Of a DNA stretch of 64,000 nucleotides, positions 5,224 to 24,279 are shown in pieces. Under the pieces are notes generated by a model. It made no database searches. It was not told the origin of the DNA and saw only the letters and a program-made list of their open reading frames with translations. The stretch's first letter is position 1; every line of letters starts with the position of its first letter. This DNA is from Chloroflexi bacterium ADurb.Bin180. GTDB lineage: Bacteria > Chloroflexota > Anaerolineae > UBA2200. The position numbers and the translations under genes were made by a program. The DNA is taken from NCBI GenBank assembly GCA_002070215.1, contig MWCV01000007.1, positions 1,660 to 65,659 on the forward strand. The letters run 5' to 3'.

Positions 5224-5241
5224 GGTGTTCTCTCCTTTGCC

Positions 5242-6210
5242 CTAGTCTGCCATCAGACCGGCGATGGTCTGCTTGATGCGCGCGACGCTGTCGGGGTGGC
5301 GCAGCACCACGATGTTGGCGCCCGCCAGGAGCAGGCTGCTTGCGGTGAGGACCTCCCAGTGAATGGCGCGCTTTATCCAGTCGCCCCAGGCCGCGGGCAC
5401 TCCCTGATTGACCTTGCTTTCCTTGGCTCGCCAGGTCTCTTCACCCACGGTGCAGATCATTGGCTGCTGCACCATACCGTCACCGGTGAGCGCGGCCAGA
5501 CGCAGTCGCTCCATCACCGAGTAAGAGTACTCCAGGCCATAGCCCAGAGCACCGGTGGTGGGGTCCATCAGCACACGGTCAAGGTCGAGTCTCATATCCG
5601 TGATCAGAATGTTGAGCTGCTTGGCCAGGTTTACGTCGATGGGCGTCTTGGCCACAACCAGATGGCCGTGAGCCAGAGCGGCAGCGACAACGGTGCGATA
5701 GTTCTTGTCCTCGCAGTTGCCCAGGACCAGGCGTTCGCCCTTGGCCGCCTCGGCCACTGCCACCAGCACTTCATTGTCCTTGTCGGCCTGGCCGGGGCCA
5801 AGGACCACCAGCGGCAGCCCCGTGGCCGCCAGCACTGCCTTGACGGTGGCCGCGGCATGGGCGGCGTCGGTGTTGTCTCCTTCGGGGTGAGCGCTGATCA
5901 GTTTGAACACAATGAGGTCGGCTCCGACCGCTTCGGCCTTCTTGGCCCAGGCGGCCGGGTCGTGCAGCACGTCGCCCCAGGATTCTTTGAGCAGCGGTGA
6001 CCATTCGTTGGGGTAGTGGTCCTGAACCTCCAGCGCGACGACAGGGGCATGGGGCATGGTGCCTTCAAAGCTCAGAAACGGGAGGGTGTTCTCGCCGCCG
6101 ACGGTCACGGTCCTGGTGCGAGTTCCCCCCTCGGCTGCGGTAGCACCGAGGGTGATCTCGCGGATCTTGCCCGTCCATTTCTCGATAGGTACTTGAACCG
6201 CTGGGGTCAT
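5242..6210 (-). CDS. acsD: Corrinoid iron-sulfur protein small subunit (acetyl-CoA decarbonylase/synthase delta)
   Basis: TIM-barrel CdhD-like sequence starting MTPAVQVPIEKWTGKIREITLG. Internal ATG at 6210 is preceded by AAGGAG 10 nt upstream; the longer ORF to 6405 has no RBS. Confidence 0.85.
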   Translation of the reverse strand: MTPAVQVPIEKWTGKIREITLGATAAEGGTRTRTVTVGGENTLPFLSFEGTMPHAPVVALEVQDHYPNEWSPLLKESWGDVLHDPAAWAKKAEAVGADLIVFKLISAHPEGDNTDAAHAAATVKAVLAATGLPLVVLGPGQADKDNEVLVAVAEAAKGERLVLGNCEDKNYRTVVAAALAHGHLVVAKTPIDVNLAKQLNILITDMRLDLDRVLMDPTTGALGYGLEYSYSVMERLRLAALTGDGMVQQPMICTVGEETWRAKESKVNQGVPAAWGDWIKRAIHWEVLTASSLLLAGANIVVLRHPDSVARIKQTIAGLMAD

Positions 6211-6423: not shown

Positions 6424-8706
6424 CTAGAACAAGGGCGGCAGGGTGAGGGCCGGGTGCCCCTTTTCCTCAAGGAAGGGCAGGAGCTGCTCCACCGAGGTGG
6501 CGACTCGCTCATCGGCAATCTTGTCGATCAGCGCCGCGTCGCCCTCGCGCTCCGCCACAGCCTTGAACTCTTCCTTCATGCTTTCCTTCAGGAAGGAGGA
6601 CATCCACACGACACGCTTAAAGCCGCCGTCAGATGACAGGAACTTGCGGCTGGTCAGATAGTACTTGCCGTGGCCCATTACGCCGGCGGTCTGTAGCCCA
6701 CCACCGGCCACGCCGGCGAGGGTGGAGAAGGTCATGCCGGCCGGTGTCATACTGGGATCCTCACGCGAGACAACCATAACTCCGTTGGCCTCGGGAATGA
6801 CCATTGCGATGCACTCAAAGCACCCGCAGGCAGTCATTGGGTTGTTCATGATGGAGTACATCGATACTTCCTGAACGGTCTGGTGTGAGGCCTGGCGCAC
6901 AAAGGCGTTGACCCCTTCAAACACCCCAAAGTTGGCGTCGATGCAGGCGCCCTTCTTGATCGGCTGATTGGGTCCGGTAGGGTTGATGTGGTTGGACGCT
7001 TTGCAGTCCAGCCAGTTGTAAGCGCCGCACAGGCCGAGCCGCTCGGGCGAGATCACGCAGACGTGATTGGGGGCAAAGCTCTGACACAGCGTGCAGCTAA
7101 AGAACTCGTCCACCGACTCATCGGTCATTCCAGCCAGGCGTTCATTGCGGAGATGGTAGGCCTGACGGGCCTTGGCCAACCACTCTTCCATCTTGGCCTT
7201 GTCCGTAAAGATGGTCACCTGCACCTTGTCCACGATGGCCCCAAAGTCGGCATGGAAGCGCGCATAAAGGATCTTGCCAAAGTGCTCCAGCTTGAAGCCT
7301 TTCTCGGCCGCCGCCTTGCTGACCCGGATCCAGGTGATGTCGCGCTGGCCGATGTGCTGGATGCCTGAAGCACCGTTGACAAAGTAGTGAATCTGCCTCT
7401 CCAGTACCGGCTCAAAGTCCTCCTGCATCTTGTGCCCGGCCACCTCAACCACGATGCCCATATCCATCGAGCCCTCTGCCGGCACGCTGTCGAACTCTGG
7501 TCCGACCACCGTGATCTTGCCGTCCTCCACCGACTCGAAGGGGGACATCTTGAGGTATTCAAAGCAGCGGCTGTTCTTGCCGCCGAACTCGACACGCATG
7601 TCGGCCTTGCGCACCCTTTCGCCTTCAAAGGCCGAACCGTAGGGCACCGGGATCGGCACCTCGGTGACCTTGATCTTGACTCCGCGGACCTCGATGGCGC
7701 GCTGTACCAGCTTTCGCGCGCGCTCGATGTCGTCCTTGCCCTCGATGTCATCAAAGGGCATGCTGATGACGTGCTCGTAGGGGGTGATGCCCGTGGGCAG
7801 GATTTGCGGGATGACCGTATCGGCGATGACGGGGAAGCCATAGTTGATCGCTCCGGCTGCCGTGGCATACTTCAGGTCGTCGACCTCGCCGAGAGCGATG
7901 GCAAAGGCAAACACGCGGGCCCGGTTGTACTGCAGTATCTCGCGCGGCATTCCTGGCTTCAGGCCGCCAAAGGTGAGTGCGCTGCGAGCGGCAAAACCGA
8001 GGGGATAGATGGTGGCGAGGGTGTCAGTGCCAAAGGGGATGATATAGGTGTCGTAACCCATCTCCACCCCGGCCTCCATCAACTGGTGAATGATGCTCCG
8101 CCCGTTGACGCTGCCGCTGAGGAACACCAGAATGCTGCGCTGCTGCAGTTCGCGCACCAACTGCACCGCCACTTCGGTGCTCTTGGCGCAGCCCAGCAGA
8201 GCGGCAAAGCCCGGCATGCGGCCGTCCACCAGTTGGATGCCCCAGGCCCGGAGCTGGATATCATCGATGGGGCCGTTCAGCCTCTTGCCGGCTTTTGCCA
8301 GCGGGTCGTTGCTGACAAAGTTGGCGGTGGGCACGTAGGTCCCGTCCCAGGTGATCTGCTGGGGTTCCACCCCGCGGGCGAAGCGAATGCCTTCGATGAT
8401 CTCCTCCGCCAGCAGTGTGGCCATACCGCAGTCCAGCGTCTCGCCAAGGTAAGGCACCCACATATTCTCCGGCGGAATGGGGTGCAGCAGACGCTTGGCG
8501 TCTTCCAGAGCCGGCACCATATCGGCCAGTTTCGCAATCTGGCGGCCCATAAAGGCCAGGTTGACCGGCAGGAAGTAGGCCGTGTTGGTGAACGCGACCG
8601 GGGTGTCAGGGCCCAGCTCGGCGATGGCCGCCTTGAGCATCGATTCGGCCTCGGCGACGACGGTATTGGCACCACGGATGGCTCGGGTTGCGATGAACCT
8701 CGACAT
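6424..8706 (-). CDS. acsB: Acetyl-CoA synthase (CODH/ACS beta subunit)
   Basis: ~760 aa with the A-cluster CGCFEC motif and the Cys cluster FSCTLCQSF...CVISPERLGLCG. Start MSRFIAT at 8706 is preceded by AAGGAG. Confidence 0.92.
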   Translation of the reverse strand: MSRFIATRAIRGANTVVAEAESMLKAAIAELGPDTPVAFTNTAYFLPVNLAFMGRQIAKLADMVPALEDAKRLLHPIPPENMWVPYLGETLDCGMATLLAEEIIEGIRFARGVEPQQITWDGTYVPTANFVSNDPLAKAGKRLNGPIDDIQLRAWGIQLVDGRMPGFAALLGCAKSTEVAVQLVRELQQRSILVFLSGSVNGRSIIHQLMEAGVEMGYDTYIIPFGTDTLATIYPLGFAARSALTFGGLKPGMPREILQYNRARVFAFAIALGEVDDLKYATAAGAINYGFPVIADTVIPQILPTGITPYEHVISMPFDDIEGKDDIERARKLVQRAIEVRGVKIKVTEVPIPVPYGSAFEGERVRKADMRVEFGGKNSRCFEYLKMSPFESVEDGKITVVGPEFDSVPAEGSMDMGIVVEVAGHKMQEDFEPVLERQIHYFVNGASGIQHIGQRDITWIRVSKAAAEKGFKLEHFGKILYARFHADFGAIVDKVQVTIFTDKAKMEEWLAKARQAYHLRNERLAGMTDESVDEFFSCTLCQSFAPNHVCVISPERLGLCGAYNWLDCKASNHINPTGPNQPIKKGACIDANFGVFEGVNAFVRQASHQTVQEVSMYSIMNNPMTACGCFECIAMVIPEANGVMVVSREDPSMTPAGMTFSTLAGVAGGGLQTAGVMGHGKYYLTSRKFLSSDGGFKRVVWMSSFLKESMKEEFKAVAEREGDAALIDKIADERVATSVEQLLPFLEEKGHPALTLPPLF

Positions 8707-8769: not shown

Positions 8770-10755
8770 CTAGACCCTGGCACTGTAGACGTTCAGTACC
8801 TCATCGTCGGCTTTCTCGAGCACCTTCAGGGTCACGGCGTCGCCGCTCTGTCCGTGGCGCTTGGCGTCATAGACCGGCAGGCCCAGTGCGGCACGCTTCT
8901 TGTCAATGTGCCTGAGGGCCCGGTCCACTGCCTCCTGTGCATCGGGCAGGAACTCGAGCCTCCCGCCCAGCCTGGCCTCCAGGCCGTCGCCCAGGAACTC
9001 GGTCACCTTCTTGCTGCCGGCGATGGGAGAGCGGCCGCCCATGATGGTGTAGACGCCAGAGCCGGCAAAGTAGCAGCCGATGGAAATGGCCTTCTCGCTC
9101 ATCCACTCTGGTGCAAAGCCAGCGCCCGGGAGGTCCGAGATGTCCTCGCCCAGGCCGCCTTCGCTGGCCATCTGGCTGAGCACGGTGAGAATGCGCGTAT
9201 TGTCGACGCAGCTTCCCAGATGGAGGACGGGCGGAATGCCGACCGTTTCGCAGATCTCGCGCAGGCCCGGTCCAGCGAACCTGGCTGCGTCAGGCGAGAG
9301 CAGCCCGTACTTGGCGCAGGCGATGGCGCCGCAGCCGGTCATCACCACCAGCACGTCGTTCTTGATCAGCTCCCGCACTGTGTACAGGTGGGTCTCGTCC
9401 TGGCACGTTCCGGCGTGGTTGCAGCCGACGACTCCCGCTGCTCCGCGCAGGCGGCCGCTGGCGACGGCGTCATTTAGGGGTCTGAACGAGCCGCGATACA
9501 TCCCGCCGAGGGCATAGTTGATGTACTCGTGCGAAAAGCCCGCTACCATTTGATCGATGTCGGTGGGGATGTGCGTCTGTTTGCGGTTCTTGTAATTATC
9601 GATGCCCATGCGCACCACCTGCTTGGCGATGTCGAGGGCACGGAGTTCGTCGAACTCGACGTGCGTCACGCCTTCGATGTGCGCTTTGGGCGAGGTTGTG
9701 ACTAGCTTGGTGTGGTAGTGCTGGGTTAGCGGTCCAAGGGCCTGCATGATGCACTGAATATCGACGACCATCAGGTCTACTGCCCCGGTGACAATGGCCA
9801 GCTCCTGGCTCAGGAAGTTGCCCAGCGAGGCGACACCCTGGCGCATCAACGTCTCATTCGAGGTACAGCACAGGCCACCGAGGTTGATGCCGGCAGCGCC
9901 CTTGGACTTGGCGTACTCAATGAGCTCTGGATCGTTGACCGCCACCAGGATCATCTCAGAGAGAATGGGCTCGTGACCGTGCACCACGACGTTGACCATG
10001 GTCTCGTCCAACGCTCCCAGGTTGGCCTTGGCTACCAGCGGGACGGGCGAGCCAAACAGGATATCGGTGATATCGGTGGACAGCATCGAGCCGCCCCAAC
10101 CGTCACCGAGCGAGACCCGGATCGCTGACATCAGCAGGGTCTCGTAGAATTGGTCGTTCCCGATGTGGGTCCGGTGCATGACGTCAACAATCTCGCGGTC
10201 GATGCCGCGCGGCATGATGCCGAGGTGACGCCAAATCTCCTGTCGCTTCTTCGGCGCGCGCTGCACATAGGCCAGCTCGCCAGTCTGCTGGCCGAACTGT
10301 GCCAGTGCTTTGGTGGCGACGTCCTTGGCTATCTCTATGGGCTCACGATCCTTGGTGGGCACATCCAGGTACTCGGCTACGGAGAGCAATTTGCGCACGT
10401 CGCGCAGCTCATAGTTTGGCGCGTGCCCTTCGGCCGCTGCCAGCAGGGTCAAGGCCATATCTCGGCCATGATCCGAGTGAGCGGCTGCTCCGGCGGCCGA
10501 CATGCGGGCGAAATTGCGGGCGATGATGGTCTCTGCGTCCGCTCCGCACACGCCCCGCTGTGGGCCCTCGCCGAACGGATCTACTCGGCACGGACCCTGG
10601 TGGCACACGCGGCAGCACAGGCCAAGCTTGCCGAACCCGCACTGTGGCTGCTGGGCTTCCAGGCGGTCCCAGGCGAGTTCGACTCCATCTTCGGCTGCAA
10701 TGGACAGCAGCTTTTGGATGGCGGGATCTTTCGACAGCCTACATGCATCGGTCAT
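8770..10755 (-). CDS. cooS: Anaerobic carbon monoxide dehydrogenase catalytic subunit
   Basis: 661 aa, N-terminal CGFGKLGLCCRVCHQGPCR B/D-cluster cysteine pattern of Ni-CODH. AGGAGG RBS 8 nt upstream of ATG at 10755. Confidence 0.92.
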   Translation of the reverse strand: MTDACRLSKDPAIQKLLSIAAEDGVELAWDRLEAQQPQCGFGKLGLCCRVCHQGPCRVDPFGEGPQRGVCGADAETIIARNFARMSAAGAAAHSDHGRDMALTLLAAAEGHAPNYELRDVRKLLSVAEYLDVPTKDREPIEIAKDVATKALAQFGQQTGELAYVQRAPKKRQEIWRHLGIMPRGIDREIVDVMHRTHIGNDQFYETLLMSAIRVSLGDGWGGSMLSTDITDILFGSPVPLVAKANLGALDETMVNVVVHGHEPILSEMILVAVNDPELIEYAKSKGAAGINLGGLCCTSNETLMRQGVASLGNFLSQELAIVTGAVDLMVVDIQCIMQALGPLTQHYHTKLVTTSPKAHIEGVTHVEFDELRALDIAKQVVRMGIDNYKNRKQTHIPTDIDQMVAGFSHEYINYALGGMYRGSFRPLNDAVASGRLRGAAGVVGCNHAGTCQDETHLYTVRELIKNDVLVVMTGCGAIACAKYGLLSPDAARFAGPGLREICETVGIPPVLHLGSCVDNTRILTVLSQMASEGGLGEDISDLPGAGFAPEWMSEKAISIGCYFAGSGVYTIMGGRSPIAGSKKVTEFLGDGLEARLGGRLEFLPDAQEAVDRALRHIDKKRAALGLPVYDAKRHGQSGDAVTLKVLEKADDEVLNVYSARV

Positions 10756-10853: not shown

Positions 10854-11654
10854 CTACTTTCCCCGCTGGAAAGGAGAGGGCGTGGCCTTGAGCCCAACGA
10901 TCCAATCCGACGCCGCGATTTCGCGGCGGCAGTCCGGGCAGACTTCCAGCCAGGTCTTGATTAGCTCGAGCTTGTCAGCCAGTTTGTCCAGTTCAGCCTG
11001 CGGTGCAAAGTACTGGCCGCAGCGGACGCACTGACGTCTCGGCAGCGATGCGTTCCACTTGTCGAGCTTGCGTAGCTGCAGCACGTCCTGCACGTCGATG
11101 GCATGAGTGGGGCAGACAAAGGCGCAGGCTCCGCAGCCGATGCAGGCCTCTGATGGCTCGAGAAACGGCGTGGCCACCTCGCGTCCTGGCCCGCGCCCGA
11201 CAAAGCTGATGGCGCTCTCGCCGATCAGCTCCTCGCACACCCGCACGCATAGCCCGCAGAGGATGCAGTTCTCCTCTGGTTTGCGGGCTGCAAAGCGCGG
11301 CTGGCGCACTCCGAGTTCCTCGCCCAGCTCCTGGAGGAGCCTGACACCGGGGCACCTGGCCAGCAAGAGCTCGACCACGATGCGCCTGTTGCGCAGCACC
11401 CGGTCCGAGTGCGTTAATACCTCCAGTCCGTCTTCCCGCAGGTGGAACGTGCAGGAGGTGACAATTCGGCTGCGGTTGCCCCTCCTGATCTCCGCCAGGC
11501 ACAGGCGGCATGCGCCGTAGGGTGCCAGGGCCGGGTGGTAGCAGAGGGTAGGAATGTGAACCCCGATGGACCTGGCCGCTTCGAGCACAGTGGTGTCGAC
11601 GGGAACTCTGGCTTCATGACCATCGATGGTGGTGGTGACCAGCGTTTCGCCCAT
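10854..11654 (-). CDS. NuoG/HndD N-terminal-like iron-sulfur protein (2Fe-2S plus two 4Fe-4S, no catalytic domain)
   Basis: MGETLV start at 11654 overlaps TGA of the nuoF-like gene (ATGA). CYHPALAPYGACRLC 2Fe-2S pattern plus CILCGLCVRVC and CIGCGACAFVCP ferredoxin motifs. Confidence 0.75.
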   Translation of the reverse strand: MGETLVTTTIDGHEARVPVDTTVLEAARSIGVHIPTLCYHPALAPYGACRLCLAEIRRGNRSRIVTSCTFHLREDGLEVLTHSDRVLRNRRIVVELLLARCPGVRLLQELGEELGVRQPRFAARKPEENCILCGLCVRVCEELIGESAISFVGRGPGREVATPFLEPSEACIGCGACAFVCPTHAIDVQDVLQLRKLDKWNASLPRRQCVRCGQYFAPQAELDKLADKLELIKTWLEVCPDCRREIAASDWIVGLKATPSPFQRGK

Positions 11655-13507
11655 CACTCGACTCCTATGGCGCCGAACTTGCACACATCGGCGCAGAGTC
11701 CGCAACGGATGCATTTGGCCGGGTCAATGGCGTGGGGCTGCTTCTTCTCGCCGGCAATGGCTGACTCGGGACAGTTCCGGCGGCACACTCCGCAGCCGGT
11801 GCACTTGTCGGTAATCACAAAGTAGTGGATGAGGGCCCGGCAGACTCCGGCGGGGCACCTCTTTTCCTTGATATGCGCCTCGTACTCGCTGCGGAAATAG
11901 CGAATGGTCGACAGCACCGGGTTGGGGGCGGTCTTGCCCAGTTGACACAGGGCCGACTCTTGAGCCACGTGCCCCAGCTCCTCCAGCAGCTCGATATCCC
12001 CCTCTTGTCCTTGGCCCGCGCAGATGTCGGTGAGCGTCTCGAACATGCGCTGCACTCCCTCGCGGCAGGGAGTGCACTTGCCGCAGGACTCGTCGCGCGT
12101 AAAGTCCAGGAAATAGCGTGCCACGTCGACCATGCAGGTCCGGTCGTCCATCACGATCATTCCGCCGGAGCCCATCATCGAGCCGGCCTCGGTGAGCGCC
12201 TCATAGTCGACCGGCAGGTCGAGCAGCTCTTCGGGTATGCAGCCTCCAGAGGGCCCGCCGGTCTGTACGGCCTTGAACTTGCGGCCGCCCGGCACACCAC
12301 CACCGATGTCATTGATCAACTCACGCAGCCTGGTGCCCATCGGCACCTCAACCAGCCCGGTGTTGTTGATCTTGCCCACCAGCGAAAAGACCATGGTGCC
12401 TTTGCTCTTCTCCGTACCGATGGACGAGTACCATTCAGCACCGTGGTTGATGATGTGCGGCACGCTGGCCCAGGTCTTGACGTTGTTCAGGACCGTTGGC
12501 TTGTCCCACAGGCCACTCTCGGTGGCGTGGATGTCCTTGTCTCTGGGCTCGCCGACGCGACCCTCGACCGACCGCATCAGCGCGCTCGACTCGCCGCAGA
12601 CAAAGGCTCCACCGCCGCGGCTGATCTTGATCTCCAGGTCGAAACCAGAGCCGAGAATGTTCTTGCCCAGCAGACCCGCTTCTCTGGCCTGCTGCAGGGC
12701 GAGGCCGATATGCTTGACCGCCAAGGGGTATTCGTTGCGGACGTAGATATAGCCCGTGGAAGCGCCCACAGCGTAGGCGCCGATGATGATGCCTTCGAGA
12801 ACGCTGTGCGGGTTGGCCTCCAACAGGCTGCGGTCCATGAACGCGCCGGGATCGCCCTCGTCGGCATTGCAGATGACGTACTTGGGCTCTCCGTGGGCAG
12901 CGTGGGCCGACTCCCACTTGCGTCCGGTGGGAAAGCCTGCCCCGCCTCTGCCGCGCAATCCCGAGCGCTTGACGATGTCAATGACCGTATCGGGTGACAA
13001 ACCGGTGAGCACCTTGCTCAGGGCCGAGTACCCGCCCAGGGCGACATAATCTTCGATCGAGGTCGGGTCGATCCTGCCGTTATTGGCGTACAGGATGCGC
13101 TGCTGGCGCTTGTAGAACGGGATGTCGTCCTCGTGAGCGATGGCCTCGCCGCTATTCGGGTCGGTGTACAGGAGCCGGGAGACGATCTCCCCTTTGCGCA
13201 GGGTGGTAGCGATGATCTCCTGGACGTCCTCTGCCTTCACCCGCTGGTAAAAGACCTTTTGCGGGTAGATGACGACGATGGGACCGCGCTCGCAAAAGCC
13301 GTGGCATCCGGTGGCCTTGAGAGCGACAGTGTGGTCCAAACCGGCGGCGGCCATCTCACTCTGAAACGCATCCAGGACCGCTCTGGCGCCGGAGGCAGCG
13401 CAGCCTGTCGTGCTGCACACTGCTACCAGGGGCCGTGCCGGGTCGCGCTCCTTCAGCAGCGATTGTCGCCATTGGTCCAGTTCGGAGGCGGTGAGTAGCT
13501 TGTTCAC
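11654..13507 (-). CDS. NuoF/HndC/HoxF-like NAD(P)H-binding flavoprotein with thioredoxin-like 2Fe-2S N-domain and C-terminal 2x[4Fe-4S]
   Basis: GGAGFPTG and NADEGDPGAF FMN/NADH motifs, ESCGKCTPCREG N3-cluster motif, and C-terminal CTGCGVCRRNCP / CIRCGLCADVC ferredoxins. Confidence 0.9.
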   Translation of the reverse strand: MNKLLTASELDQWRQSLLKERDPARPLVAVCSTTGCAASGARAVLDAFQSEMAAAGLDHTVALKATGCHGFCERGPIVVIYPQKVFYQRVKAEDVQEIIATTLRKGEIVSRLLYTDPNSGEAIAHEDDIPFYKRQQRILYANNGRIDPTSIEDYVALGGYSALSKVLTGLSPDTVIDIVKRSGLRGRGGAGFPTGRKWESAHAAHGEPKYVICNADEGDPGAFMDRSLLEANPHSVLEGIIIGAYAVGASTGYIYVRNEYPLAVKHIGLALQQAREAGLLGKNILGSGFDLEIKISRGGGAFVCGESSALMRSVEGRVGEPRDKDIHATESGLWDKPTVLNNVKTWASVPHIINHGAEWYSSIGTEKSKGTMVFSLVGKINNTGLVEVPMGTRLRELINDIGGGVPGGRKFKAVQTGGPSGGCIPEELLDLPVDYEALTEAGSMMGSGGMIVMDDRTCMVDVARYFLDFTRDESCGKCTPCREGVQRMFETLTDICAGQGQEGDIELLEELGHVAQESALCQLGKTAPNPVLSTIRYFRSEYEAHIKEKRCPAGVCRALIHYFVITDKCTGCGVCRRNCPESAIAGEKKQPHAIDPAKCIRCGLCADVCKFGAIGVE

Positions 13508-14022
13508 GTTGCTGCCTCCCGCTCGGCCGCTGCTTTGGCTTCCGAACCTGACGCGGCGCTCGTTTCGCCGCTCCGATAGGCTTTGAGCACCCCGTCCACC
13601 TTGCTCACGGTCATCCGGCCGTGATATTCGCCATCCACCACGACCACGGGGCCGAGCGCACAGGCGCCGAGGCAGTTCACTGTTTCCAGACTGAACTGCT
13701 GGTCAGTGGTAGTTCCGCCGGGGTTCACACTGAGGGTTCGCTCCAGTTGCTCGAGGATCCGGTCGGCGCCGCGAACGTGGCACGCCGTCCCCAGGCAGAC
13801 CTGGATCAGGTGCTTGCCTCTGGGTACCAGACTAAAGGCACGATAAAAGTTGGCCACGCTGTAGACACGGCTGGGAGGAATATCGAGCAGGCAGGCCACA
13901 CGGCGAAGGGCGTCTTTCGGCAGATAGTTGTAGGCTACCTGCACTTCCTGGAGAACGGCGATGAGCATGGAAGGGTCAGCGCCATTGCGCTGCACTGCCT
14001 CGTCTACCTTGGTCAGGTCCAT
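13504..14022 (-). CDS. NuoE/HndA-like 2Fe-2S thioredoxin-fold subunit
   Basis: CLGTACHVRG...CLGACALGPVVVV 24-kDa subunit cysteine pattern; overlaps nuoF-like start by 4 nt. Confidence 0.85.
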   Translation of the reverse strand: MDLTKVDEAVQRNGADPSMLIAVLQEVQVAYNYLPKDALRRVACLLDIPPSRVYSVANFYRAFSLVPRGKHLIQVCLGTACHVRGADRILEQLERTLSVNPGGTTTDQQFSLETVNCLGACALGPVVVVDGEYHGRMTVSKVDGVLKAYRSGETSAASGSEAKAAAEREAAT

Positions 14023-14025
14023 GGC

Positions 14026-14553
14026 CTACCCCTGGCCGCTGGAGACCGGCAACTTGCCGGCCAGAACCTCGCGGGCTGTGCTGAGGCGCTTGTCGCGGGC
14101 GATGTCCTCCACGGTCTTGAAACGCAGGCAGTGAGTGGGGCAGGCAGCGACGCAGGCCGGCTCTAGGCCCTGACTCTGCCGGTCCACGCAGAGGTCGCAC
14201 TTGAGCACGACCTTGTCCGACTTGCGCATGCGCGCCGCCCCAAAGGGACACACCATGACGCACCACATACAACCGATGCACTTGTCGCGGTCGGCCAGCA
14301 CCCAGCCCTCGTCGCCCTCCTTGGTCAGGCAGTGAGTGGGGCAAACGCGCACGCAGGGGGCGTCATCGCAGTGCCGGCACTGGAGCGGGATGGGCATCTG
14401 TTCCACGTACTCGACCATAACGCGGTAACCGGGCCGGGGAACTTCGGTGATGGCTTGCACCAGGTCCTTCGAGGCCGAGTGCTCGACCGCGCAGGCGATC
14501 TGGCAAGCCTTGCAGCCCAGGCACTTTTCTACCTCGCAGATGATCCTCTTCAT
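14026..14553 (-). CDS. cooF: CooF-like 4Fe-4S ferredoxin (CODH electron-transfer subunit)
   Basis: Four CxxCxxCxxxCP-type motifs (CLGCKACQIAC, CRHCDDAPCVRVCP, CIGCMWCVMVCP, CDLC...CVAACP). Start MKRIICEV at 14553 with GGAGGA RBS; the ORF extension to 14646 is unsupported. Confidence 0.8.
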   Translation of the reverse strand: MKRIICEVEKCLGCKACQIACAVEHSASKDLVQAITEVPRPGYRVMVEYVEQMPIPLQCRHCDDAPCVRVCPTHCLTKEGDEGWVLADRDKCIGCMWCVMVCPFGAARMRKSDKVVLKCDLCVDRQSQGLEPACVAACPTHCLRFKTVEDIARDKRLSTAREVLAGKLPVSSGQG

Positions 14554-14681: not shown

Positions 14682-15020
14682 CTAGTACTTGCGAAAGTCA
14701 CCGGACATCTCCAGGTCTTTGATGTTGGTGCGCGTGGTGCGCGGGCCACCCTGGAACCACAGGGACGCGTCATCCTTGCCTTCAACCGTGTCCGGGAGCT
14801 GCCACTCCTGGTCCGGGCCGTAGCCGGCGCTGGCCAGGGCAGCCTGGAGCTGCTTTGAGGTTACCTGCTTGGGGTTGTAGTGCACAACAACACGCCGAAA
14901 GGCGCCGCTGGCGATTACCTGCTCTACTCCCTTGAGCGCGAGCAGGGTCTCGCGAACCAGGAGCACGTGGTGATCGGCGTACATCTTGGGAACCTGGAAG
15001 ACCTTCTTTTCCGTTGCCAC
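14682..15020 (-). CDS. Hypothetical small protein, HMA/ferredoxin-like fold with MYADHH in place of the MxCxxC metal site
   Basis: 112 aa and cysteine-free. KVFQVPKMYADHHVLLVRETLLALKGVEQV...YNPKQVTSKQLQAALASAGYG resembles a heavy-metal-associated domain with His substitutions. Confidence 0.45.
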   Translation of the reverse strand: MATEKKVFQVPKMYADHHVLLVRETLLALKGVEQVIASGAFRRVVVHYNPKQVTSKQLQAALASAGYGPDQEWQLPDTVEGKDDASLWFQGGPRTTRTNIKDLEMSGDFRKY

Positions 15021-15064
15021 CGTGATCCTCCTGTGAAGCTGAGTTGTTGCGGTTGTTCTTGTGC

Positions 15065-15094
15065 CGCAAGCGGGGGAGTTGTCTCCCCCGCTTG
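15065..15094 (-). terminator. GC-rich hairpin 10 nt downstream of the fhs stop (possible attenuator/partial terminator)
   Basis: gcaagcgggggag-ttgt-ctcccccgcttgc gives a 13-bp perfect stem with a 4-nt loop. No U-tract follows, so it is at most a weak terminator. Confidence 0.4.
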
Positions 15095-15103
15095 CGCCAT
15101 GCT

Positions 15104-16972
15104 CTACATTAGGCCTGTGATCCGGCCGGTCTCGAGGTCTACGTCGATGTCCATAAACACGGGTCGGGATGGCAGGCCAGGCATAGTGCGCATCGTGCCG
15201 CAGAGCGGGTAAAGGAATCCCGCACCAACGGAGGCGCGGATATCGCGCACCGGCAGCATATAGCCCTTGGGCACGCCCTTCCAGTCCTGGTTGTGCGACA
15301 GTGACAGATGGGTCTTGGCCATGCAGATGGGCAGCTTGTCATAGCCGAGCTCGGTGTACAGCTTGAGCTTGGCCTGCGCAGCAGCCTCAAAGAGGACTCC
15401 ATCCGCGCCATAGACCTCCTTGGCGATGATCTCGATCTTGTCCTTGATCGGGATATCCAGCGGGTAGAGGTACTTGAAGTCGACCGGTTTCTCGCAGGCT
15501 TCGATGACGGCATTGGCCAGATCGATGGTGCCGAGCTCGCCCTGCGCCCAGTTCGTACAGGCGTAGGCACCCTCGGCTCCCGCCTCCACGGCGGCCTTGC
15601 GGACCACCTCGATTTCCTTGTCCGTATCGGCGGAGAAGCGGTTGACGGCCACCACTACCGGCACGCCGAACTTTTTGGCCGTGCGGATGTGAGCCACCAG
15701 ATTGCCGGTGCCCGCTTCGAGCAGTGGGATGTTCTCTTCCTTGTAGGCTGCGGCCAGCGGCACGCCAGCCACTACGCGTGGTCCACCGCCGTGCATCTTG
15801 AGCGCGCGCACTGTGGCGACAATCACCACGCAGTTGGGAATCAGGCCACTGGCGCGGCACTTGATGTCCATGAACTTTTCCATGCCGATGTCGGCGCCAA
15901 AACCGGACTCGGTGACCACGTAGCCGCCCGAGGCCATCTTGACTGCCAGCCGGTCGGCGATGATCGAGGAGTTGCCGGGAGCGATGTTGGCGAAAGGCCC
16001 CGCATGCACAAAGGCCGGCCCGCCCGACAGCGTCTGCATCAGGTTGGGCATCAGCGCGTCCTTCATCAGGACGGTCATGGCCCCGGCTACTCCCAAATCC
16101 TCGGCAGTGACCGGGTTGCGGTTCTTGTCCGTGCCGATGACCATGCGGCCGATGCGAGCGCGCAGATCCTTGAGGTCGGAGGACATCATCAGGATGGCCA
16201 TTACCTCGCTGGCAACCGAGATATCGTAGCCGCTCTGGCGCGGGCGGCCGTCGTCCTTGGTGCCCAGGCCGAGAACGATGTTGCGGATGGCCCGGTCGCT
16301 GATGTCTACTACGCGGTTGAGCGTAATCCCGTAGGGGTCAATGTCCAGGCGGAAGAAGCGGCCGCGCTCTTCGGGGGTCAGCTCGGCCGGCGTCTTGGCG
16401 TTGATGCCCAGCTTTTTCAGGCGAACGAACATCCAGGGGGCGAACTTGCCATCGGGGCAGAGGGCCTTGGCCAGCTTATCGTCGGACTCGTCGTCTTCGT
16501 GCATGATGCGCGCGTCGACGGCTGCGGCCAGAAGGTTGTGCGCTGCGCTGACGGCGTGGATGTCGCCCGTGAGGTGGAGGTTGAAATCCTCCATGGGAAC
16601 AATCTGAGAATAGCCGCCACCGGCGGCACCGCCTTTGATGCCAAACGTGGGGCCCTGCGAGGGCTGGCGAATGCAGGTGATGACCTTCTTACCCAGATAG
16701 TAGAGCGACTCGCTGAGGCCGCAGGTGGTAGTGGTCTTGCCTTCGCCGAGGGGAGTAGGAGTGATGGCCGTGACGTCGATGTACTTGGCGTTGGGGCGGT
16801 CTTTGAAACGTTGAAGCACATCCAGGTGGACCTTGGCCTTGTACTTGCCATAATAGTCAAGGTCGTCTTCGGTCAGGCCCACTTCGGCTGCGACGTCGCG
16901 AATCGGTCGCAGCCTAGCCGCCTGAGCGATTTCGAGGTCGCTCGGGGTAGGCGACTTGATGTCAACAATCAT
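15104..16972 (-). CDS. fhs: Formate--tetrahydrofolate ligase
   Basis: 622 aa with the hallmark PTPLGEGKTTTT motif; GGAGGCA RBS upstream of ATG at 16972. Confidence 0.95.
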   Translation of the reverse strand: MIVDIKSPTPSDLEIAQAARLRPIRDVAAEVGLTEDDLDYYGKYKAKVHLDVLQRFKDRPNAKYIDVTAITPTPLGEGKTTTTCGLSESLYYLGKKVITCIRQPSQGPTFGIKGGAAGGGYSQIVPMEDFNLHLTGDIHAVSAAHNLLAAAVDARIMHEDDESDDKLAKALCPDGKFAPWMFVRLKKLGINAKTPAELTPEERGRFFRLDIDPYGITLNRVVDISDRAIRNIVLGLGTKDDGRPRQSGYDISVASEVMAILMMSSDLKDLRARIGRMVIGTDKNRNPVTAEDLGVAGAMTVLMKDALMPNLMQTLSGGPAFVHAGPFANIAPGNSSIIADRLAVKMASGGYVVTESGFGADIGMEKFMDIKCRASGLIPNCVVIVATVRALKMHGGGPRVVAGVPLAAAYKEENIPLLEAGTGNLVAHIRTAKKFGVPVVVAVNRFSADTDKEIEVVRKAAVEAGAEGAYACTNWAQGELGTIDLANAVIEACEKPVDFKYLYPLDIPIKDKIEIIAKEVYGADGVLFEAAAQAKLKLYTELGYDKLPICMAKTHLSLSHNQDWKGVPKGYMLPVRDIRASVGAGFLYPLCGTMRTMPGLPSRPVFMDIDVDLETGRITGLM

Positions 16973-17116: not shown

Positions 17117-17145
17117 ACTATATCATAGGTTGCCAAGCTTGTCAA
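17117..17145 (-). promoter_or_regulatory. Sigma-70-like promoter for fhs (TTGACA-N17-TATAGT on minus strand)
   Basis: Minus-strand TTGACA at 17145-17140, 17-nt spacer, TATAGT at 17122-17117. Lies in the 210-nt folD-fhs intergenic region. Confidence 0.55.
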
Positions 17146-23352: not shown

Positions 23353-24279
23353 CTACAGCCTGGGCCGGGGCAAGAGCCCCGCTAGCTCGAGGATCTCCTG
23401 AACGGCCTCTTCCCATTCGATGGCCATGACGTGCACTCCGCGTACTCCGGGGATCTCGCGCATCTCCTGGATGATGTCGGCGCACTGCTTGATGCCTTCT
23501 TTGCGCACCTGCTCCTTGGGCACGCCCTTGAGCCGGGCGATGACGTCCTCCGGCACGTCCATACCAGGCACACTGTTCTGCATATACCGTGCCATGCCGA
23601 TGCTCTTGATTGGCCCGACGCCAGCCAGGATGAAGCACTTTTCGTGGATGCCCAGATCAACTACCCGTTTCATGAACTCTTTGAACTTGGGCACGTTGTA
23701 GATGAGCTGCGTCTGAATAAAGTCCGCCCCGGCGGCCACTTTCTTGGCCAGCCGATAGGGCCGGTAGTCGAACGGGTCGGCAAAGGGGTTCTCCGCTGCG
23801 CCGATGAAAAAGCGCGGTTCCACCGTCTCGATGGCCTCTCCATTGGCGAACTTTTTCTCATCGCGCAGGGCCTTGACCAGCGCCACCAGTTGAATCGAGT
23901 CCAGATCATAGACGCCGCGCGCCGTGGGGTGATTGCCGAACTTTTGATGGTCTCCGGTGAGGCAGAGCAAGTTCTTGATGCCCAGAGCCGAGGCGCCCAG
24001 CAAGTCGGCCTGAATGGCCAGCCGATTGCGGTCGCGGCAGGTCATCTGGATGGTCGGCTCGATGCCTTCCTGCAGCAGCATAATGCCGACCGCGATGCTC
24101 GACATACGCACGATGGCGGTCTGGTTGTCGGTGATGTTGACCGCATCCACCAACCCTTTGAGGAGGGCAGCCTTGCGCTTGATTGCCTCCGCCTCGGCGC
24201 TCTTGGGAGGACCCAGCTCGCCGGTCGCGGCAAACTGGCCCGAAGCCAGGATCTTTTCGAGGTTGCTGGAGACCTTCAT
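23353..24279 (-). CDS. metF: 5,10-methylenetetrahydrofolate reductase
   Basis: 308 aa MetF TIM-barrel sequence (ATGELGPPKS..., NITDNQTA), adjacent to metV. Confidence 0.9.
   Translation of the reverse strand: MKVSSNLEKILASGQFAATGELGPPKSAEAEAIKRKAALLKGLVDAVNITDNQTAIVRMSSIAVGIMLLQEGIEPTIQMTCRDRNRLAIQADLLGASALGIKNLLCLTGDHQKFGNHPTARGVYDLDSIQLVALVKALRDEKKFANGEAIETVEPRFFIGAAENPFADPFDYRPYRLAKKVAAGADFIQTQLIYNVPKFKEFMKRVVDLGIHEKCFILAGVGPIKSIGMARYMQNSVPGMDVPEDVIARLKGVPKEQVRKEGIKQCADIIQEMREIPGVRGVHVMAIEWEEAVQEILELAGLLPRPRL

What the first reader, a model, noticed from the sequence alone, without database searches (positions are those of the whole stretch)
10854..14553. NuoE-NuoF-truncated NuoG-CooF module fused onto the CODH operon: candidate CO:NAD(P)+ (possibly bifurcating) oxidoreductase
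cooF, nuoE-like, nuoF-like (with thioredoxin-like 2Fe-2S N-domain and two C-terminal ferredoxin domains) and a NuoG-N-terminal-only Fe-S protein are linked by 4-nt overlaps. They sit immediately upstream of cooS. The trio is the diaphorase core of HydABC/HytA-E-type bifurcating complexes but has no hydrogenase or FDH catalytic subunit. This suggests it wires CODH electrons to NAD(P)H and/or ferredoxin.
Basis: inference. Interest (0 to 1): 0.55.

Follow-up and report, generated by a model that had tools for sequence, protein, structure and literature searches.

The report
Electron-bifurcating module wired to CODH/ACS
Four small iron-sulfur/flavin genes sitting inside the CO2-fixing acetyl-CoA (Wood-Ljungdahl) operon of an uncultured Chloroflexi bacterium look like an electron-splitting adaptor. 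It would let the CO dehydrogenase exchange electrons with NADH and ferredoxin at once, which has been proposed on paper for stand-alone CO dehydrogenases but never tested and never described for the acetyl-CoA synthase complex.

Summary
On the minus strand, cooF-like (14553-14026), nuoE-like (14022-13504), nuoF-like (13507-11654) and a 266-aa NuoG-N-terminal-like gene (11654-10854) lie directly upstream of cooS (10755-8770).

Corrections: the junctions are a 3-nt gap, a 4-nt overlap and a 1-nt overlap. The CODH is the AcsA subunit of a full CODH/ACS operon (fhs-HMA-cooF-bfuCBA-cooS-acsB-acsD-acsC-...-RACo-cooC-acsE).

The trio is a complete Bfu (HydABC-family) bifurcation core. BfuB has the ligands of all five cluster sites B1-B5, including the diagnostic His. 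BfuA is a short WorA-type subunit with a 4-Cys zinc-finger tail and terminal helix (best match PDB 9MQX chain A). CooF matches WorS.

Linkage to CODH/ACS holds in every relative with at least 57% BfuA identity. It recurs, in other gene orders, in Clostridia, Aerophobetes, Firestonebacteria, Planctomycetota, Myxococcales, Terriglobia, Anaerolineales and Bathyarchaeia.

"Codh-Bfu/CodhABCSF" is already a published but unpurified hypothesis, limited to Firmicutes and stand-alone CODH. I found no description of the ACS-embedded, multi-phylum version.

The parts
17117..17145 (-). sigma-70-like promoter (TTGACA-17-TATAGT, TG extension) upstream of fhs. It is a candidate start of the fhs-...-acs transcription unit.
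   Evidence: 11 of 12 matches. This is a consensus match only.
15104..16972 (-). fhs, formate-tetrahydrofolate ligase. It is the gene upstream of the module and is not cooS.
   Evidence: Pfam FTHFS E 1e-248
15062..15097 (-). strong GC-rich stem-loop just after the fhs stop codon, with no U tract. It may be an mRNA processing, stabilising or attenuation element.
   Evidence: sequence; dG -34.4 kcal/mol, z -7.7
14682..15020 (-). 112-aa HMA-like protein with no cysteines, conserved between fhs and cooF in close relatives. Function unknown.
   Evidence: PF00403 HMA, weak or unmarked, in relatives; 57-99% identical copies at the same position; no Cys; no NCBIfam hit
14026..14553 (-). CooF/WorS-like polyferredoxin, 175 aa. 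It has four CxxCxxCxxxC-type motifs (16 Cys plus 3 extra) and is the predicted wire between the CODH D-cluster and BfuA cluster A4.
   Evidence: Fer4_11; 9mqx_E WorS E 2e-20, HycB3/4, FdnH; Cys positions
13504..14022 (-). BfuC (NuoE/HydC-like), 172 aa. [2Fe-2S] cluster C1 ligands are C76, C81, C117, C121.
   Evidence: PF01257 E 4e-50; (below the NuoE and HoxE equivalog cut-offs)
11654..13507 (-). BfuB (NuoF/HydB-like), 617 aa. Site ligands: B5 [2Fe-2S] C31/C36/C68/C72; FMN/NAD(H) domain; B1 C475/C478/C481/C521; B2 C458/C496/H545/C551/C556; B3/B4 C569-C579 and C599-C609.
   Evidence: (ungapped alignment to A. mobile NiFe-HydB 7t2r_B, E 2.4e-248, offset +20)
10854..11654 (-). Short Type-2 BfuA (WorA-like), 266 aa. 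A1 [2Fe-2S] C38/C49/C52/C68; two [4Fe-4S] (A2, A4) C130-C140 and C171-C181; no His-ligated A3 and no A5 domain. The C-terminal 4-Cys finger is C209/C212/C239/C242, followed by helix 240-256.
   Evidence: 9mqx_A E 2e-49, residues 8-249; AF2, pLDDT 80.5; Foldseek 9mqx_A, TM 0.77/0.82
8770..10755 (-). CooS/AcsA, the Ni-CODH catalytic subunit of CODH/ACS, 661 aa. Its RBS AGGAGG lies 98 nt downstream of bfuA.
   Evidence: best PDB hits 6t7j, then 6ytt and 9fzy, the last two CODH/ACS CODH subunits; TIGR01702, 625 bits against a cut-off of 478
6424..8706 (-). AcsB, acetyl-CoA synthase subunit, 760 aa from the ATG with an RBS.
   Evidence: (NF040764, 970 bits against a cut-off of 800)
3856..6210 (-). 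acsD (5242-6210) and acsC (3856-5223), the corrinoid iron-sulfur protein subunits.
   Evidence: CdhD, FeS Pfam domains on identical or near-identical products
113..2095 (-). RACo, the reductive activator of the corrinoid protein. In the parent contig the operon continues beyond the window with cooC and acsE.
   Evidence: (L088)

Best explanation
cooF-bfuC-bfuB-bfuA encode a Type-2 member of the Bfu (HydABC-type) flavin/iron-sulfur electron-bifurcating family, built like the tungsten aldehyde oxidoreductase complex WorABCSL. BfuBC is the NAD(H)- and ferredoxin-reactive bifurcation core. The short BfuA (A1-A2-A4 clusters plus a Zn-finger/helix tail) is the adaptor, and the four-cluster CooF plays the role of WorS.

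The 'third-substrate' enzyme is the CODH (CooS/AcsA) of the CODH/ACS encoded immediately downstream.

Predicted wire: C-cluster -> B -> D (CooS dimer) -> CooF (4 x [4Fe-4S]) -> A4 -> A2 -> A1 (BfuA) -> B1/FMN (BfuB). From there electrons split to NAD+ (hydride at FMN) and, via C1/B2/B3/B4, to ferredoxin.

Net reaction: 2 CO + 2 H2O + NAD+ + 2 Fd(ox) <-> 2 CO2 + NADH + 2 Fd(red) + 3 H+.

[quoted passage not shown] In the oxidative direction (acetyl-CoA cleavage), low-activity CO would still reduce ferredoxin because NAD+ reduction pays for it.

Shown: gene content, cofactor ligands, fold, conserved linkage.
Inferred: physical complex, bifurcation, stoichiometry, direction, NAD rather than NADP.
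For: 1. Family features.
- BfuB has the 51K FMN domain, SLBB, the Nuo51 4Fe-4S domain and a C-terminal 2x[4Fe-4S] domain.
- It has the N-terminal B5 cysteines and all five B2 ligands, including His545. These map without gaps onto C438/C476/H525/C531/C536 of A. mobile HydB.
- PMC9304861 states that B2-B5 are present in all bifurcating members and absent from non-bifurcating homologs.

2. BfuA.
- It lacks the His-ligated A3 cluster and the A5 domain, which is the Type-2 definition.
- Its best PDB sequence hit (E 2e-49) and fold hit (TM 0.77/0.82, full length) is WorA (9MQX).
- The four tail Cys align to the WorA zinc finger. A terminal helix is predicted, as in the WorA adaptor that recruits WorS.

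3. CooF has four cluster motifs and hits WorS. PMC12318220 states that CooF is the WorS homolog in the hypothetical CodhABCSF.

4. Linkage.
- All relatives with 57-99% BfuA identity keep fhs-HMA-cooF-bfuCBA-cooS-acsB (L001-L005, L090-L092, L096).
- bfuA overlaps cooS by 4 nt in L004 and L005.
- In L006, L007, L008 and L087 the module is inserted between cooS and acsB. In L015 it lies between acsB and acsC. In L029, L051 and L069 it is upstream of cooS-acsB. In the Bathyarchaeia locus L033 it lies between a CdhA-type CODH and cdhC.

5. No FDH or hydrogenase catalytic gene in the 64-kb window or in L088.

6. Thermodynamics, using the potentials tabulated in PMC9304861: CO2/CO is -520 mV, and the mean of physiological NAD (-280 mV) and Fd (-500 mV) is -390 mV. 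Reversal therefore needs CO2/CO of about 10^4, which is plausible only if ACS consumes CO. That fits the ACS-embedded context (inference).
Against: - No biochemical or expression data exist for any Codh-Bfu. The published class is explicitly hypothetical.
- CO at standard potential can reduce both NAD+ and ferredoxin without coupling, so the need for bifurcation is not obvious. The authors of the family raise this themselves.
- Relatives of the short BfuA serve many partners: POR, AOR, GltS/GltD-like, Hdr/MvhD, NiFe hydrogenase. The module is therefore promiscuous.
- In a crude NJ tree of BfuB the ACS-linked sequences are not monophyletic.
- In the window itself a 98-nt spacer separates bfuA from cooS.
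- The rest of the genome was not available. Moco biosynthesis genes and a Moco riboswitch in the window imply a Mo/W enzyme, possibly FDH, somewhere in the genome.
- Whether the B2 site holds [2Fe-2S] or Zn, and whether the tail binds Zn or Fe-S, cannot be told from sequence.
Confidence: 0.6

Rival explanations
1. The module is the HylABC/HytBCD-like diaphorase of a formate dehydrogenase or hydrogenase encoded elsewhere in the genome. It sits in the Wood-Ljungdahl cluster only for co-regulation, for example to supply the first step of the methyl branch just before fhs.
For: - Bfu cores with short BfuA subunits are known partners of FDH and hydrogenases (PMC9304861).
- The window carries moaA, moeA, Mo/W-type transport genes and a Moco riboswitch, so a pterin enzyme exists somewhere.
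- The module lies next to fhs, the formate-consuming enzyme.
Against: - No FDH or hydrogenase gene in the 64-kb window plus ~4 kb beyond its start.
- In distant lineages the module is inserted between cooS and acsB, or between cdhA and cdhC, with no fhs or fdh nearby.
- bfuA overlaps cooS by 4 nt in L004 and L005.
- A CooF-type subunit, the classical CODH partner, always accompanies the module in the ACS-linked loci where the upstream region is present.
Confidence: 0.13
2. It is a simple, non-bifurcating CO:NAD(P)+ oxidoreductase. CooF and BfuA pass CODH electrons to FMN, only NAD(P)+ is reduced, and the extra BfuB clusters are structural or vestigial.
For: - CO (-520 mV) can reduce NAD+ exergonically without coupling.
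- CODH-linked NAD(P) reduction through other flavoproteins (CooF-FNOR clusters) has been proposed in the literature.
Against: - Characterised non-bifurcating homologs (Nqo1, HoxF, FdsB, S. wolfei HydB) lack B2-B5. Here every ligand of B2-B5 is conserved, in the window and in most ACS-linked relatives. The L007 and L008 sequences show two non-Cys residues at the B5 positions.
- All characterised members with this full cofactor set bifurcate.
Confidence: 0.1
3. CooF-BfuABC is a free-standing redox-balancing enzyme that forms no stable complex with CODH. CooF, or a soluble ferredoxin-like carrier, is its third substrate, and the enzyme equilibrates NADH, ferredoxin and the CooF pool used by CODH/ACS.
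For: - The 98-nt spacer before cooS in the window.
- The modular promiscuity of short-BfuA systems.
- The non-monophyly of ACS-linked BfuB in the NJ tree.
Against: - WorA uses exactly this tail (Zn finger plus helix) to bind its polyferredoxin partner in a stable complex. The tail is conserved here.
- Gene orders that interleave the module with cooS, acsB and acsC are typical of subunits of one complex. Schut et al. use the same argument.
Confidence: 0.1

Closest known systems
WorABCSL of Acetomicrobium mobile (PDB 9MQX; PMC12318220), an electron-bifurcating tungsten aldehyde oxidoreductase
   Same: - The BfuBC core is the same.
- BfuA is the same short type: A1, A2 and A4 only, with a C-terminal 4-Cys finger and a terminal helix. 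It is the best sequence and fold match to the window protein.
- The partner is a four-cluster CooF/WorS-type polyferredoxin.
- BfuB is also a top PDB hit (9mqx_B, E 2e-241).
   Different: - The catalytic partner is a Ni-CODH within CODH/ACS rather than a tungstopterin AOR.
- Whether CooF forms a multi-copy 'nanowire' is unknown.
- The window BfuA tail is about 17 residues longer.
Hypothetical Codh-Bfu (Schut et al. 2022, PMC9304861) / CodhABCSF (PMC12318220)
   Same: BfuABC plus CooS plus CooF-type subunits in one gene cluster. The predicted reaction is CO + NAD+ + Fd. BfuB resembles clade-49 NiFe-HydB, the clade said to hold Codh-Bfu.
   Different: - The published class has 4 sequences, all from Firmicutes. 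Its CODH genes lie between bfuB and bfuA, and it is interpreted as free-CO oxidation or detoxification. ACS and the Wood-Ljungdahl pathway are not mentioned.
- Here the host is a Chloroflexi (Anaerolineae) MAG. The module is embedded in a complete CODH/ACS operon, and equivalents occur in at least 8 further lineages including Bathyarchaeia.
- Neither version has been purified.
NiFe-HydABCSL of A. mobile (PDB 7T2R/7T30) and FeFe-HydABC (7P5H, 8A6T, 7Q4V)
   Same: BfuB aligns without gaps over 590 residues to 7t2r_B (E 2.4e-248), with all B1-B5 ligands, including Cys rather than Thr at the second B2 position. BfuC is homologous.
   Different: - Their HydA subunits are 570-690 aa, with A3 and an A5 or H-cluster domain.
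- There is no hydrogenase gene here.
HytA-E/FdhA of Clostridium autoethanogenum and HylABC-FdhF2 of Gottschalkia acidurici
   Same: A Type-2 logic: a short BfuA-like subunit (HytD/HylA) with the A1, A2 and A4 clusters, linked through extra Fe-S subunits to a separate catalytic subunit.
   Different: Their catalytic partners are FDH and/or an H-cluster subunit. None is present here.
Complex I N-module (NuoEFG) and HoxEFU diaphorase
   Same: Homologous folds. Public annotations name the window proteins HndA/HndC/NuoF.
   Different: - Scores fall below every NuoE, NuoF, NuoG, HoxE and HoxU equivalog cut-off.
- NuoF and HoxF lack B2-B5.
- There are no nuoA-N or hoxYH neighbours.
CooS-CooF-FNOR clusters of Clostridia (cited in PMC6344411)
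   Same: A CODH plus CooF coupled to a pyridine-nucleotide-reactive flavoprotein.
   Different: FNOR is an unrelated FAD-dependent oxidoreductase, not a NuoEF-type FMN/Fe-S core.

Membership tests
Bfu (HydABC-type) electron-bifurcating family (definition: PMC9304861) | BfuB with the Nuo51 FMN domain, SLBB, the Nuo51 [4Fe-4S] (B1) and a C-terminal 4Fe-4S ferredoxin-type domain (B3, B4) | tested here: met
   Pfam Complex1_51K, SLBB, NADH_4Fe-4S and 2 x Fer4. Cys 475/478/481/521 and 569-609.
Bfu (HydABC-type) electron-bifurcating family (definition: PMC9304861) | B2 site: four Cys (or Cys/Thr) plus a His that is absent from non-bifurcating homologs | tested here: met
   C458, C496, H545, C551 and C556 align without gaps to C438/C476/H525/C531/C536 of 7t2r_B. 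The His is conserved in all ACS-linked relatives.
Bfu (HydABC-type) electron-bifurcating family (definition: PMC9304861) | N-terminal thioredoxin-like [2Fe-2S] (B5) in BfuB | tested here: met
   PF01257 hit at residues 22-101. C31/C36/C68/C72.
Bfu (HydABC-type) electron-bifurcating family (definition: PMC9304861) | BfuC: NuoE-like [2Fe-2S] subunit encoded next to BfuB | tested here: met
   PF01257 E 4e-50, 4-nt overlap with bfuB, C76/C81/C117/C121.
Bfu (HydABC-type) electron-bifurcating family (definition: PMC9304861) | BfuA with at least a 2Fe-2S ferredoxin-type domain and a 4Fe-4S ferredoxin-type domain | tested here: met
   Fer2_4 plus Fer4_7/Fer4_21.
Bfu (HydABC-type) electron-bifurcating family (definition: PMC9304861) | Tightly coupled reduction of NAD+ and ferredoxin by the third substrate | not testable with these tools
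   Needs an enzyme assay.
Type-2 Bfu / WorABCSL-like architecture (PMC9304861, PMC12318220) | BfuA lacks the A3 (His-ligated) and A5 clusters and keeps A1, A2 and A4 | tested here: met
   No PF10588 hit. There is no H-x3-C-x2-C-x5-C motif: the corresponding region reads 'ELLLARCPGV', and its single Cys is not conserved. The protein is 266 aa long.
Type-2 Bfu / WorABCSL-like architecture (PMC9304861, PMC12318220) | C-terminal four-Cys zinc finger plus terminal alpha-helix adaptor in BfuA | tested here: met
   C209/C212/C239/C242 are invariant in 16 homologs and align to the WorA finger. The AF2 model has helix 240-256. Foldseek to 9mqx_A covers all 247 residues, TM 0.77/0.82. Metal identity is not testable.
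Type-2 Bfu / WorABCSL-like architecture (PMC9304861, PMC12318220) | WorS/CooF-type subunit with four [4Fe-4S] clusters encoded with the core | tested here: met
   Four Cys motifs. 9mqx_E E 2e-20. Separated from bfuC by a 3-nt gap.
Type-2 Bfu / WorABCSL-like architecture (PMC9304861, PMC12318220) | C-terminal helix of the S subunit that drives nanowire oligomerisation | not tested
   The CooF tail (residues 157-175) was not modelled.
Codh-Bfu / CodhABCSF (hypothetical class) | bfuABC, cooS and cooF-type genes in one cluster | tested here: met
   Conserved in relatives.
Codh-Bfu / CodhABCSF (hypothetical class) | BfuB belongs to clade 49 of Schut et al. | tested here: inconclusive
   The best PDB hit is the clade-49 NiFe-HydB, but no tree was built with their reference set. 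My NJ tree is crude.
Codh-Bfu / CodhABCSF (hypothetical class) | Reported distribution and context: Firmicutes only, stand-alone CODH | tested here: not met
   The host is Chloroflexi bacterium ADurb.Bin180. The CODH is followed by acsB, acsD, acsC, RACo, cooC and acsE. This is a difference of context, not of architecture.
Bacterial CODH/ACS (AcsA-AcsB with CFeSP) | Ni-CODH catalytic subunit and AcsB above curated cut-offs, with acsC, acsD, RACo, cooC and acsE adjacent | tested here: met
   TIGR01702: 625 bits against a cut-off of 478. NF040764: 970 bits against 800. Neighbours. Best PDB relatives include the CODH/ACS CODH subunits 6ytt and 9fzy.
Respiratory complex I N-module (NuoEFG) | NuoE, NuoF and NuoG equivalog scores, and nuoA-N neighbours | tested here: not met
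   NuoE 138.3 against a cut-off of 141; NuoF 486.5 against 558.65; NuoG 90.6 against 470. No nuo membrane genes in the window.
HoxEFU diaphorase of bidirectional [NiFe] hydrogenase | HoxE and HoxU equivalog scores, and hoxYH neighbours | tested here: not met
   HoxE 161.8 against a cut-off of 224; HoxU 109 against 333. No NiFe hydrogenase genes.
HylABC-FdhF2 / HytA-E-FdhA bifurcating formate dehydrogenase | Molybdo/tungstopterin FDH catalytic subunit encoded with the core | tested here: not met
   None found in the 64-kb window among the larger ORFs scanned or in L088. The rest of the genome was not seen.

The most novel reading that the evidence does not exclude
CODH/ACS in many uncultured anaerobes forms a supercomplex with a CooF-BfuABC module. 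The lineages include Chloroflexota, Aerophobetes, Firestonebacteria, Planctomycetota, Myxococcota, Acidobacteriota, some Clostridia and Bathyarchaeia.

In this supercomplex the carbonyl branch of the Wood-Ljungdahl pathway would run on NADH plus ferredoxin by confurcation: 2 CO2 + NADH + 2 Fd(red) -> 2 enzyme-channelled CO. ACS pulls the reaction by keeping CO about 10^4-fold below CO2. In reverse, acetyl-CoA cleavage would regenerate reduced ferredoxin by bifurcation.

This would halve the reduced-ferredoxin cost of acetyl-CoA synthesis. It would change ATP-yield bookkeeping for acetogenesis and syntrophic acetate oxidation in these lineages.
Probability: 0.35. Interest if true: 0.8.

Novelty: new variant of a known kind. 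Interest (0 to 1): 0.58.

Why it matters
[quoted passage not shown] A bifurcating or confurcating adaptor on CODH/ACS would let NADH carry half of that load. In the reverse direction it would let acetate oxidisers recover low-potential electrons. That alters the energy budgets assumed for uncultured acetogens, syntrophs and Bathyarchaeia in digesters and sediments.

It would also be the first CODH member of the Bfu family with a defined physiological context, and it gives a concrete target for purification or cryo-EM. On the practical side, public records currently name these genes 'NADP-reducing hydrogenase HndA/HndC'. That label can create false hydrogenase calls in metabolic reconstructions.

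Tried and rejected
- **Complex I N-module or HoxEFU:** rejected. All equivalog scores are below cut-off and there are no partner genes.
- **FDH or hydrogenase partner nearby:** I scanned ORFs of 220 aa or more across the window with Pfam and extended past the window start via L088. None was found. A look-up with the long RACo ORF failed because the start codon was wrong. The RuBisCO-like look-up returned only a short contig that adds nothing beyond the window.
- **Monophyly of ACS-linked BfuB:** the NJ tree did not recover one clade. No ML tool was available, so this stays unresolved and is not used as support.
- **Genome-collection scan:** The metagenome scan was used to recover the close relatives.
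- **Literature searches:** I looked for an explicit description of a Bfu/NuoEF module inside acs operons. I found a COG-level co-occurrence note (PMC6344411), a remark that nuo genes are 'often associated with Wood-Ljungdahl genes' (PMC8671834), and the Codh-Bfu/CodhABCSF hypotheses. Subscription-only literature was not searchable.
- **Terminator scan inside the cluster:** at chance level and uninformative.
- **CooF tail:** I did not model CooF or any multimer. The structure tool takes single window sequences only.

Full report
**1. What is in the sequence**

All relevant genes are on the minus strand of a 63% G+C window. In the direction of transcription the order is:

- a promoter-like site (17145-17117)
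- fhs (16972-15104)
- a very stable stem-loop right after the fhs stop (dG -34.4 kcal/mol, z -7.7)
- a 112-aa Cys-free HMA-like ORF (15020-14682)
- cooF-like (14553-14026)
- nuoE-like (14022-13504)
- nuoF-like (13507-11654)
- a 266-aa NuoG-N-terminal-like gene (11654-10854)
- cooS (10755-8770), acsB (8706-6424), acsD, acsC
- a hydrolase, a PAP2 protein and RACo

On a contig carrying identical or near-identical genes the operon continues just beyond the window with cooC and acsE (L088). Further upstream lie folD, an FTCD_C/fchA-like gene, metF, metV and an HdrA/GltD-MvhD fusion. The 'CODH operon' is therefore a complete Wood-Ljungdahl cluster, and the CODH is the AcsA subunit of CODH/ACS:

- CooS scores 625 bits on TIGR01702 (cut-off 478).
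- AcsB scores 970 bits on NF040764 (cut-off 800).
- The best PDB relatives of CooS include the CODH subunits of the C. autoethanogenum and C. hydrogenoformans CODH/ACS.

The junctions are a 3-nt gap (cooF/nuoE), a 4-nt overlap (nuoE/nuoF), a 1-nt overlap (nuoF/nuoG-N) and a 98-nt spacer with a good RBS before cooS.

**2. Origin**

The exact proteins are on record as OQB28155-OQB28158 of 'Chloroflexi bacterium ADurb.Bin180', an anaerobic-digester MAG. Near-identical copies occur in several Anaerolineae MAGs. Public names are 'NADP-reducing hydrogenase subunit HndC/HndA' and 'Carbon monoxide dehydrogenase 1'.

**3. Anatomy of the module**

*NuoF-like protein (BfuB).*
- It aligns without a single gap over 590 residues to HydB of the structurally solved bifurcating NiFe-HydABCSL of Acetomicrobium mobile (7t2r_B, E 2.4e-248). 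The next hits are all bifurcating Bfu enzymes (WorB 9mqx_B, FeFe-HydB, NfnB). Complex I NuoF and FDH beta subunits follow more than 100 orders of magnitude lower and cover only the central part.
- With the +20 offset, the five ligands of the unusual B2 site (C438, C476, H525, C531, C536) correspond to C458, C496, H545, C551 and C556 of the window protein. All are present.
- Also present are B5 (C31/C36/C68/C72), B1 (C475/C478/C481/C521) and B3/B4 (C569-C579 and C599-C609).
- Schut et al. state that B2-B5 are conserved in all bifurcating members and missing from the characterised non-bifurcating homologs Nqo1, HoxF, FdsB and S. wolfei HydB.

*NuoE-like protein (BfuC).* It has the canonical four Cys.

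*NuoG-like protein (BfuA).*
- It keeps the [2Fe-2S] A1 site and one 2x[4Fe-4S] domain.
- It has no His-ligated cluster: there is no PF10588 hit, and the region reads ELLLARCPGV with a non-conserved Cys.
- It has no C-terminal catalytic domain. This is the 'Type 2' BfuA (A1, A2 and A4 only).
- It ends in an invariant CxxC...CxxC pair followed by a predicted helix.
- Its best PDB match by sequence (E 2e-49, residues 8-249) and by fold (Foldseek E 1.8e-23, TM 0.77/0.82 over the whole 247-residue chain) is WorA of the bifurcating tungsten aldehyde oxidoreductase WorABCSL (9MQX).
- In WorA these four Cys form a zinc finger that buttresses a C-terminal helix. That helix recruits the polyferredoxin WorS and brings cluster S4 within 10.7 A of A4.

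*CooF-like protein.* It has four cluster motifs and hits WorS (E 2e-20) as well as HycB3/4 and FdnH.

None of the four proteins reaches any NuoE, NuoF, NuoG, HoxE or HoxU equivalog cut-off in NCBIfam.

**4. Is the CODH really the partner?**

*Close relatives.* Every relative with 57-99% BfuA identity that I could inspect has the same order, fhs-HMA-cooF-bfuC-bfuB-bfuA-cooS-acsB. These are L001/L002, L003/L004, L005, L090, L091, L092 and L096. In L004 and L005 bfuA overlaps cooS by 4 nt.

*Distant relatives* (40-54% BfuA identity) are more telling, because the order changes while the contact persists:

| Gene order | Loci |
|---|---|
| cooC-cooS-cooF-bfuCBA-acsB-acsC-RACo | L006, L007 (Aerophobetes), L008 (Clostridia MAG), L087 (Planctomycetota) |
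| cooS...acsB-cooF-bfuCBA-acsC | L015 (Firestonebacteria) |
| (acsD-cooF-)bfuCBA-cooS-acsB | L051 and L029 (Myxococcales MAGs), L069 (Anaerolineales) |
| bfuA-acsB | L009 (Terriglobia), L013 |
| cooC-cooC-cdhA(784 aa)-bfuA-bfuC-bfuB-cdhC-cdhD | L033 (Bathyarchaeia) |

One Chloroflexia locus (L022) has cooF-cooS-bfuCBA without ACS.

Interleaving with subunits of one enzyme is the argument Schut et al. used for their Codh-Bfu. It applies here with more force.

*Other partners.* The short-BfuA module is not exclusive to CODH. Other relatives sit next to POR, AOR (the Wor-Bfu arrangement in L050), GltS/GltD-like genes, Hdr/MvhD (with or without MetFV) or NiFe hydrogenase genes. In a crude NJ tree of BfuB the window groups with L001, L003, L005, L006 and L015, while other ACS-linked sequences fall elsewhere. 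The association may therefore have arisen or been shuffled several times. I do not lean on that tree.

*Absence of alternatives in the window.* No FDH or hydrogenase catalytic gene is present in the 64-kb window (Pfam scans of ORFs of 220 aa or more) or just beyond its start. However, moaA, moeA, Mo/W-type transporters and a Moco riboswitch (40464-40584) show that the organism makes a pterin enzyme somewhere.

**5. Mechanism proposed**

By analogy with WorABCSL, CooF docks on the CODH dimer at the D-cluster and on the BfuA tail. Electrons travel C -> B -> D -> CooF(4 clusters) -> A4 -> A2 -> A1 -> B1/FMN. They are then split between NAD+ and ferredoxin by the BfuBC core.

Net reaction: 2 CO + 2 H2O + NAD+ + 2 Fd(ox) <-> 2 CO2 + NADH + 2 Fd(red) + 3 H+.

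Using the potentials tabulated in PMC9304861 (CO2/CO -520 mV; physiological NAD -280 mV; Fd -500 mV), the acceptor mean is -390 mV. With a 2-electron Nernst slope of about 31 mV per decade, the reaction is at equilibrium at a CO2/CO ratio of about 10^4. This is my calculation, and an inference.

Free-CO oxidation is therefore strongly downhill and would not need coupling, a puzzle the family's authors note themselves. Inside CODH/ACS the picture differs. CO is a channelled intermediate kept at very low activity by ACS, so both directions come within reach:

- Confurcation (NADH + Fd(red) -> CO2 reduction) would halve the ferredoxin cost of the carbonyl branch.
- Bifurcation during acetyl-CoA cleavage would still yield reduced ferredoxin.

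Which direction this Anaerolineae population uses cannot be told from the window. The complex, the coupling and the NAD-versus-NADP preference are inferred and not shown.

**6. Comparison with what is known**

- The Bfu family paper lists 'Codh-Bfu' (4 sequences, Firmicutes only, clade 49, CODH genes between bfuB and bfuA) as an uncharacterised Type-2 member. [quoted passage not shown] The paper does not mention acetyl-CoA synthase or the Wood-Ljungdahl pathway.
- The 2025 WorABCSL structure paper predicts a 'CodhABCSF' configured like WorABCSL and notes that it 'has yet to be purified'.
- Inoue et al. 2019 recorded that COG1034, COG1894 and COG1905 proteins co-occur with CODHs of the Wood-Ljungdahl context group, without interpretation.
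- Another MAG paper remarks that nuo genes are often near Wood-Ljungdahl genes.

I found no paper that describes a Bfu module embedded in acs/cdh operons or draws the energetic consequence. Subscription-only literature could not be searched.

**7. Verdict**

The thing is a new variant (ACS-embedded, non-Firmicute, multi-phylum) of a known but still hypothetical kind (Codh-Bfu/CodhABCSF). It rests on a structurally characterised architecture (WorABCSL).

- Confidence that it is a Bfu-type module: about 0.9.
- Confidence that it works on the CODH of CODH/ACS as a coupled NAD/Fd enzyme: about 0.6.
- Interest is moderate to high. [quoted passage not shown]

Noticed in passing
window 40464-40584 (+): Moco/Tuco riboswitch (RF01055, 63 bits, E 7e-13) immediately upstream of moaA (40660-41655). 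moeA (42817-44115) and Mo/W-type ABC transporter genes lie further on. This implies a regulated molybdo/tungstopterin enzyme elsewhere in the genome.
   Followed up: partly
window 14682-15020 (-): 112-aa ORF with weak HMA (heavy-metal-associated) similarity but no cysteine at all. It is conserved between fhs and cooF in all close relatives (57-99% identity) and has no NCBIfam hit. Its role is unknown; it could be a chaperone or assembly factor.
   Followed up: partly
window 15062-15097 (-): 14-bp perfect GC-rich hairpin directly after the fhs stop codon (dG -34.4 kcal/mol, z -7.7), with no U tract. It may be a processing or stabilising element that separates fhs from the cooF-bfu-acs genes.
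   Followed up: partly
L006 8821-12660: The AcsB of this metagenomic relative is 1279 aa and carries an intein (Intein_splicing plus a LAGLIDADG_3 homing endonuclease) inserted in the ACS C-terminal domain.
   Followed up: no
L033 5104-~14500 (Bathyarchaeia MAG): Archaeal Cdh-type CODH/ACS cluster with bfuA-bfuC-bfuB inserted between cdhA (784 aa, Prismane with a Fer4 insert) and cdhC. Two cooC genes precede it. The Bfu-CODH/ACS link is therefore not confined to bacteria.
   Followed up: partly
L111 122-9455; L039, L075, L125, L137: Other Bfu modules are embedded in methyl-branch contexts. One order is bfuB-bfuA-folD-cooS-hdrA/mvhD-metV-metF (L111). Others have metV-metF next to bfuCBA (L039, L075) or a bfuA followed by hdrA/mvhD-metV-metF (L125, L137). 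This suggests Bfu coupling to methylene-THF reductase in some lineages.
   Followed up: no
window 24949-27057, 24276-24983, 23353-24279 (-): A 702-aa fusion of a GltD/HdrA-like flavoprotein, a 2x[4Fe-4S] domain and MvhD (FlpD), directly upstream of metV and metF. This is a compact variant of the Hdr/MvhD-MetFV type methylene-THF reductase.
   Followed up: no
window 59422-60729 (-): RuBisCO large-subunit-like gene (435 aa; RuBisCO_large E 3e-48) next to an FGGY-family sugar kinase and an aminotransferase. It is probably a form III/IV RuBisCO-like protein rather than part of a Calvin cycle.
   Followed up: no
window 10854-14022 (public records OQB28156-OQB28158): Public annotation names the BfuA, BfuB and BfuC proteins 'NADP-reducing hydrogenase subunit HndC/HndC/HndA' although no hydrogenase subunit is nearby. 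This could create false hydrogenase calls in metabolic reconstructions.
   Followed up: yes
L007, L008 BfuB: In the Aerophobetes and Clostridia ACS-linked BfuB, two of the four B5 cysteine positions are Gly in my alignment, and L007 shows no PF01257 hit. These lineages may therefore lack the N-terminal [2Fe-2S] cluster.
   Followed up: no
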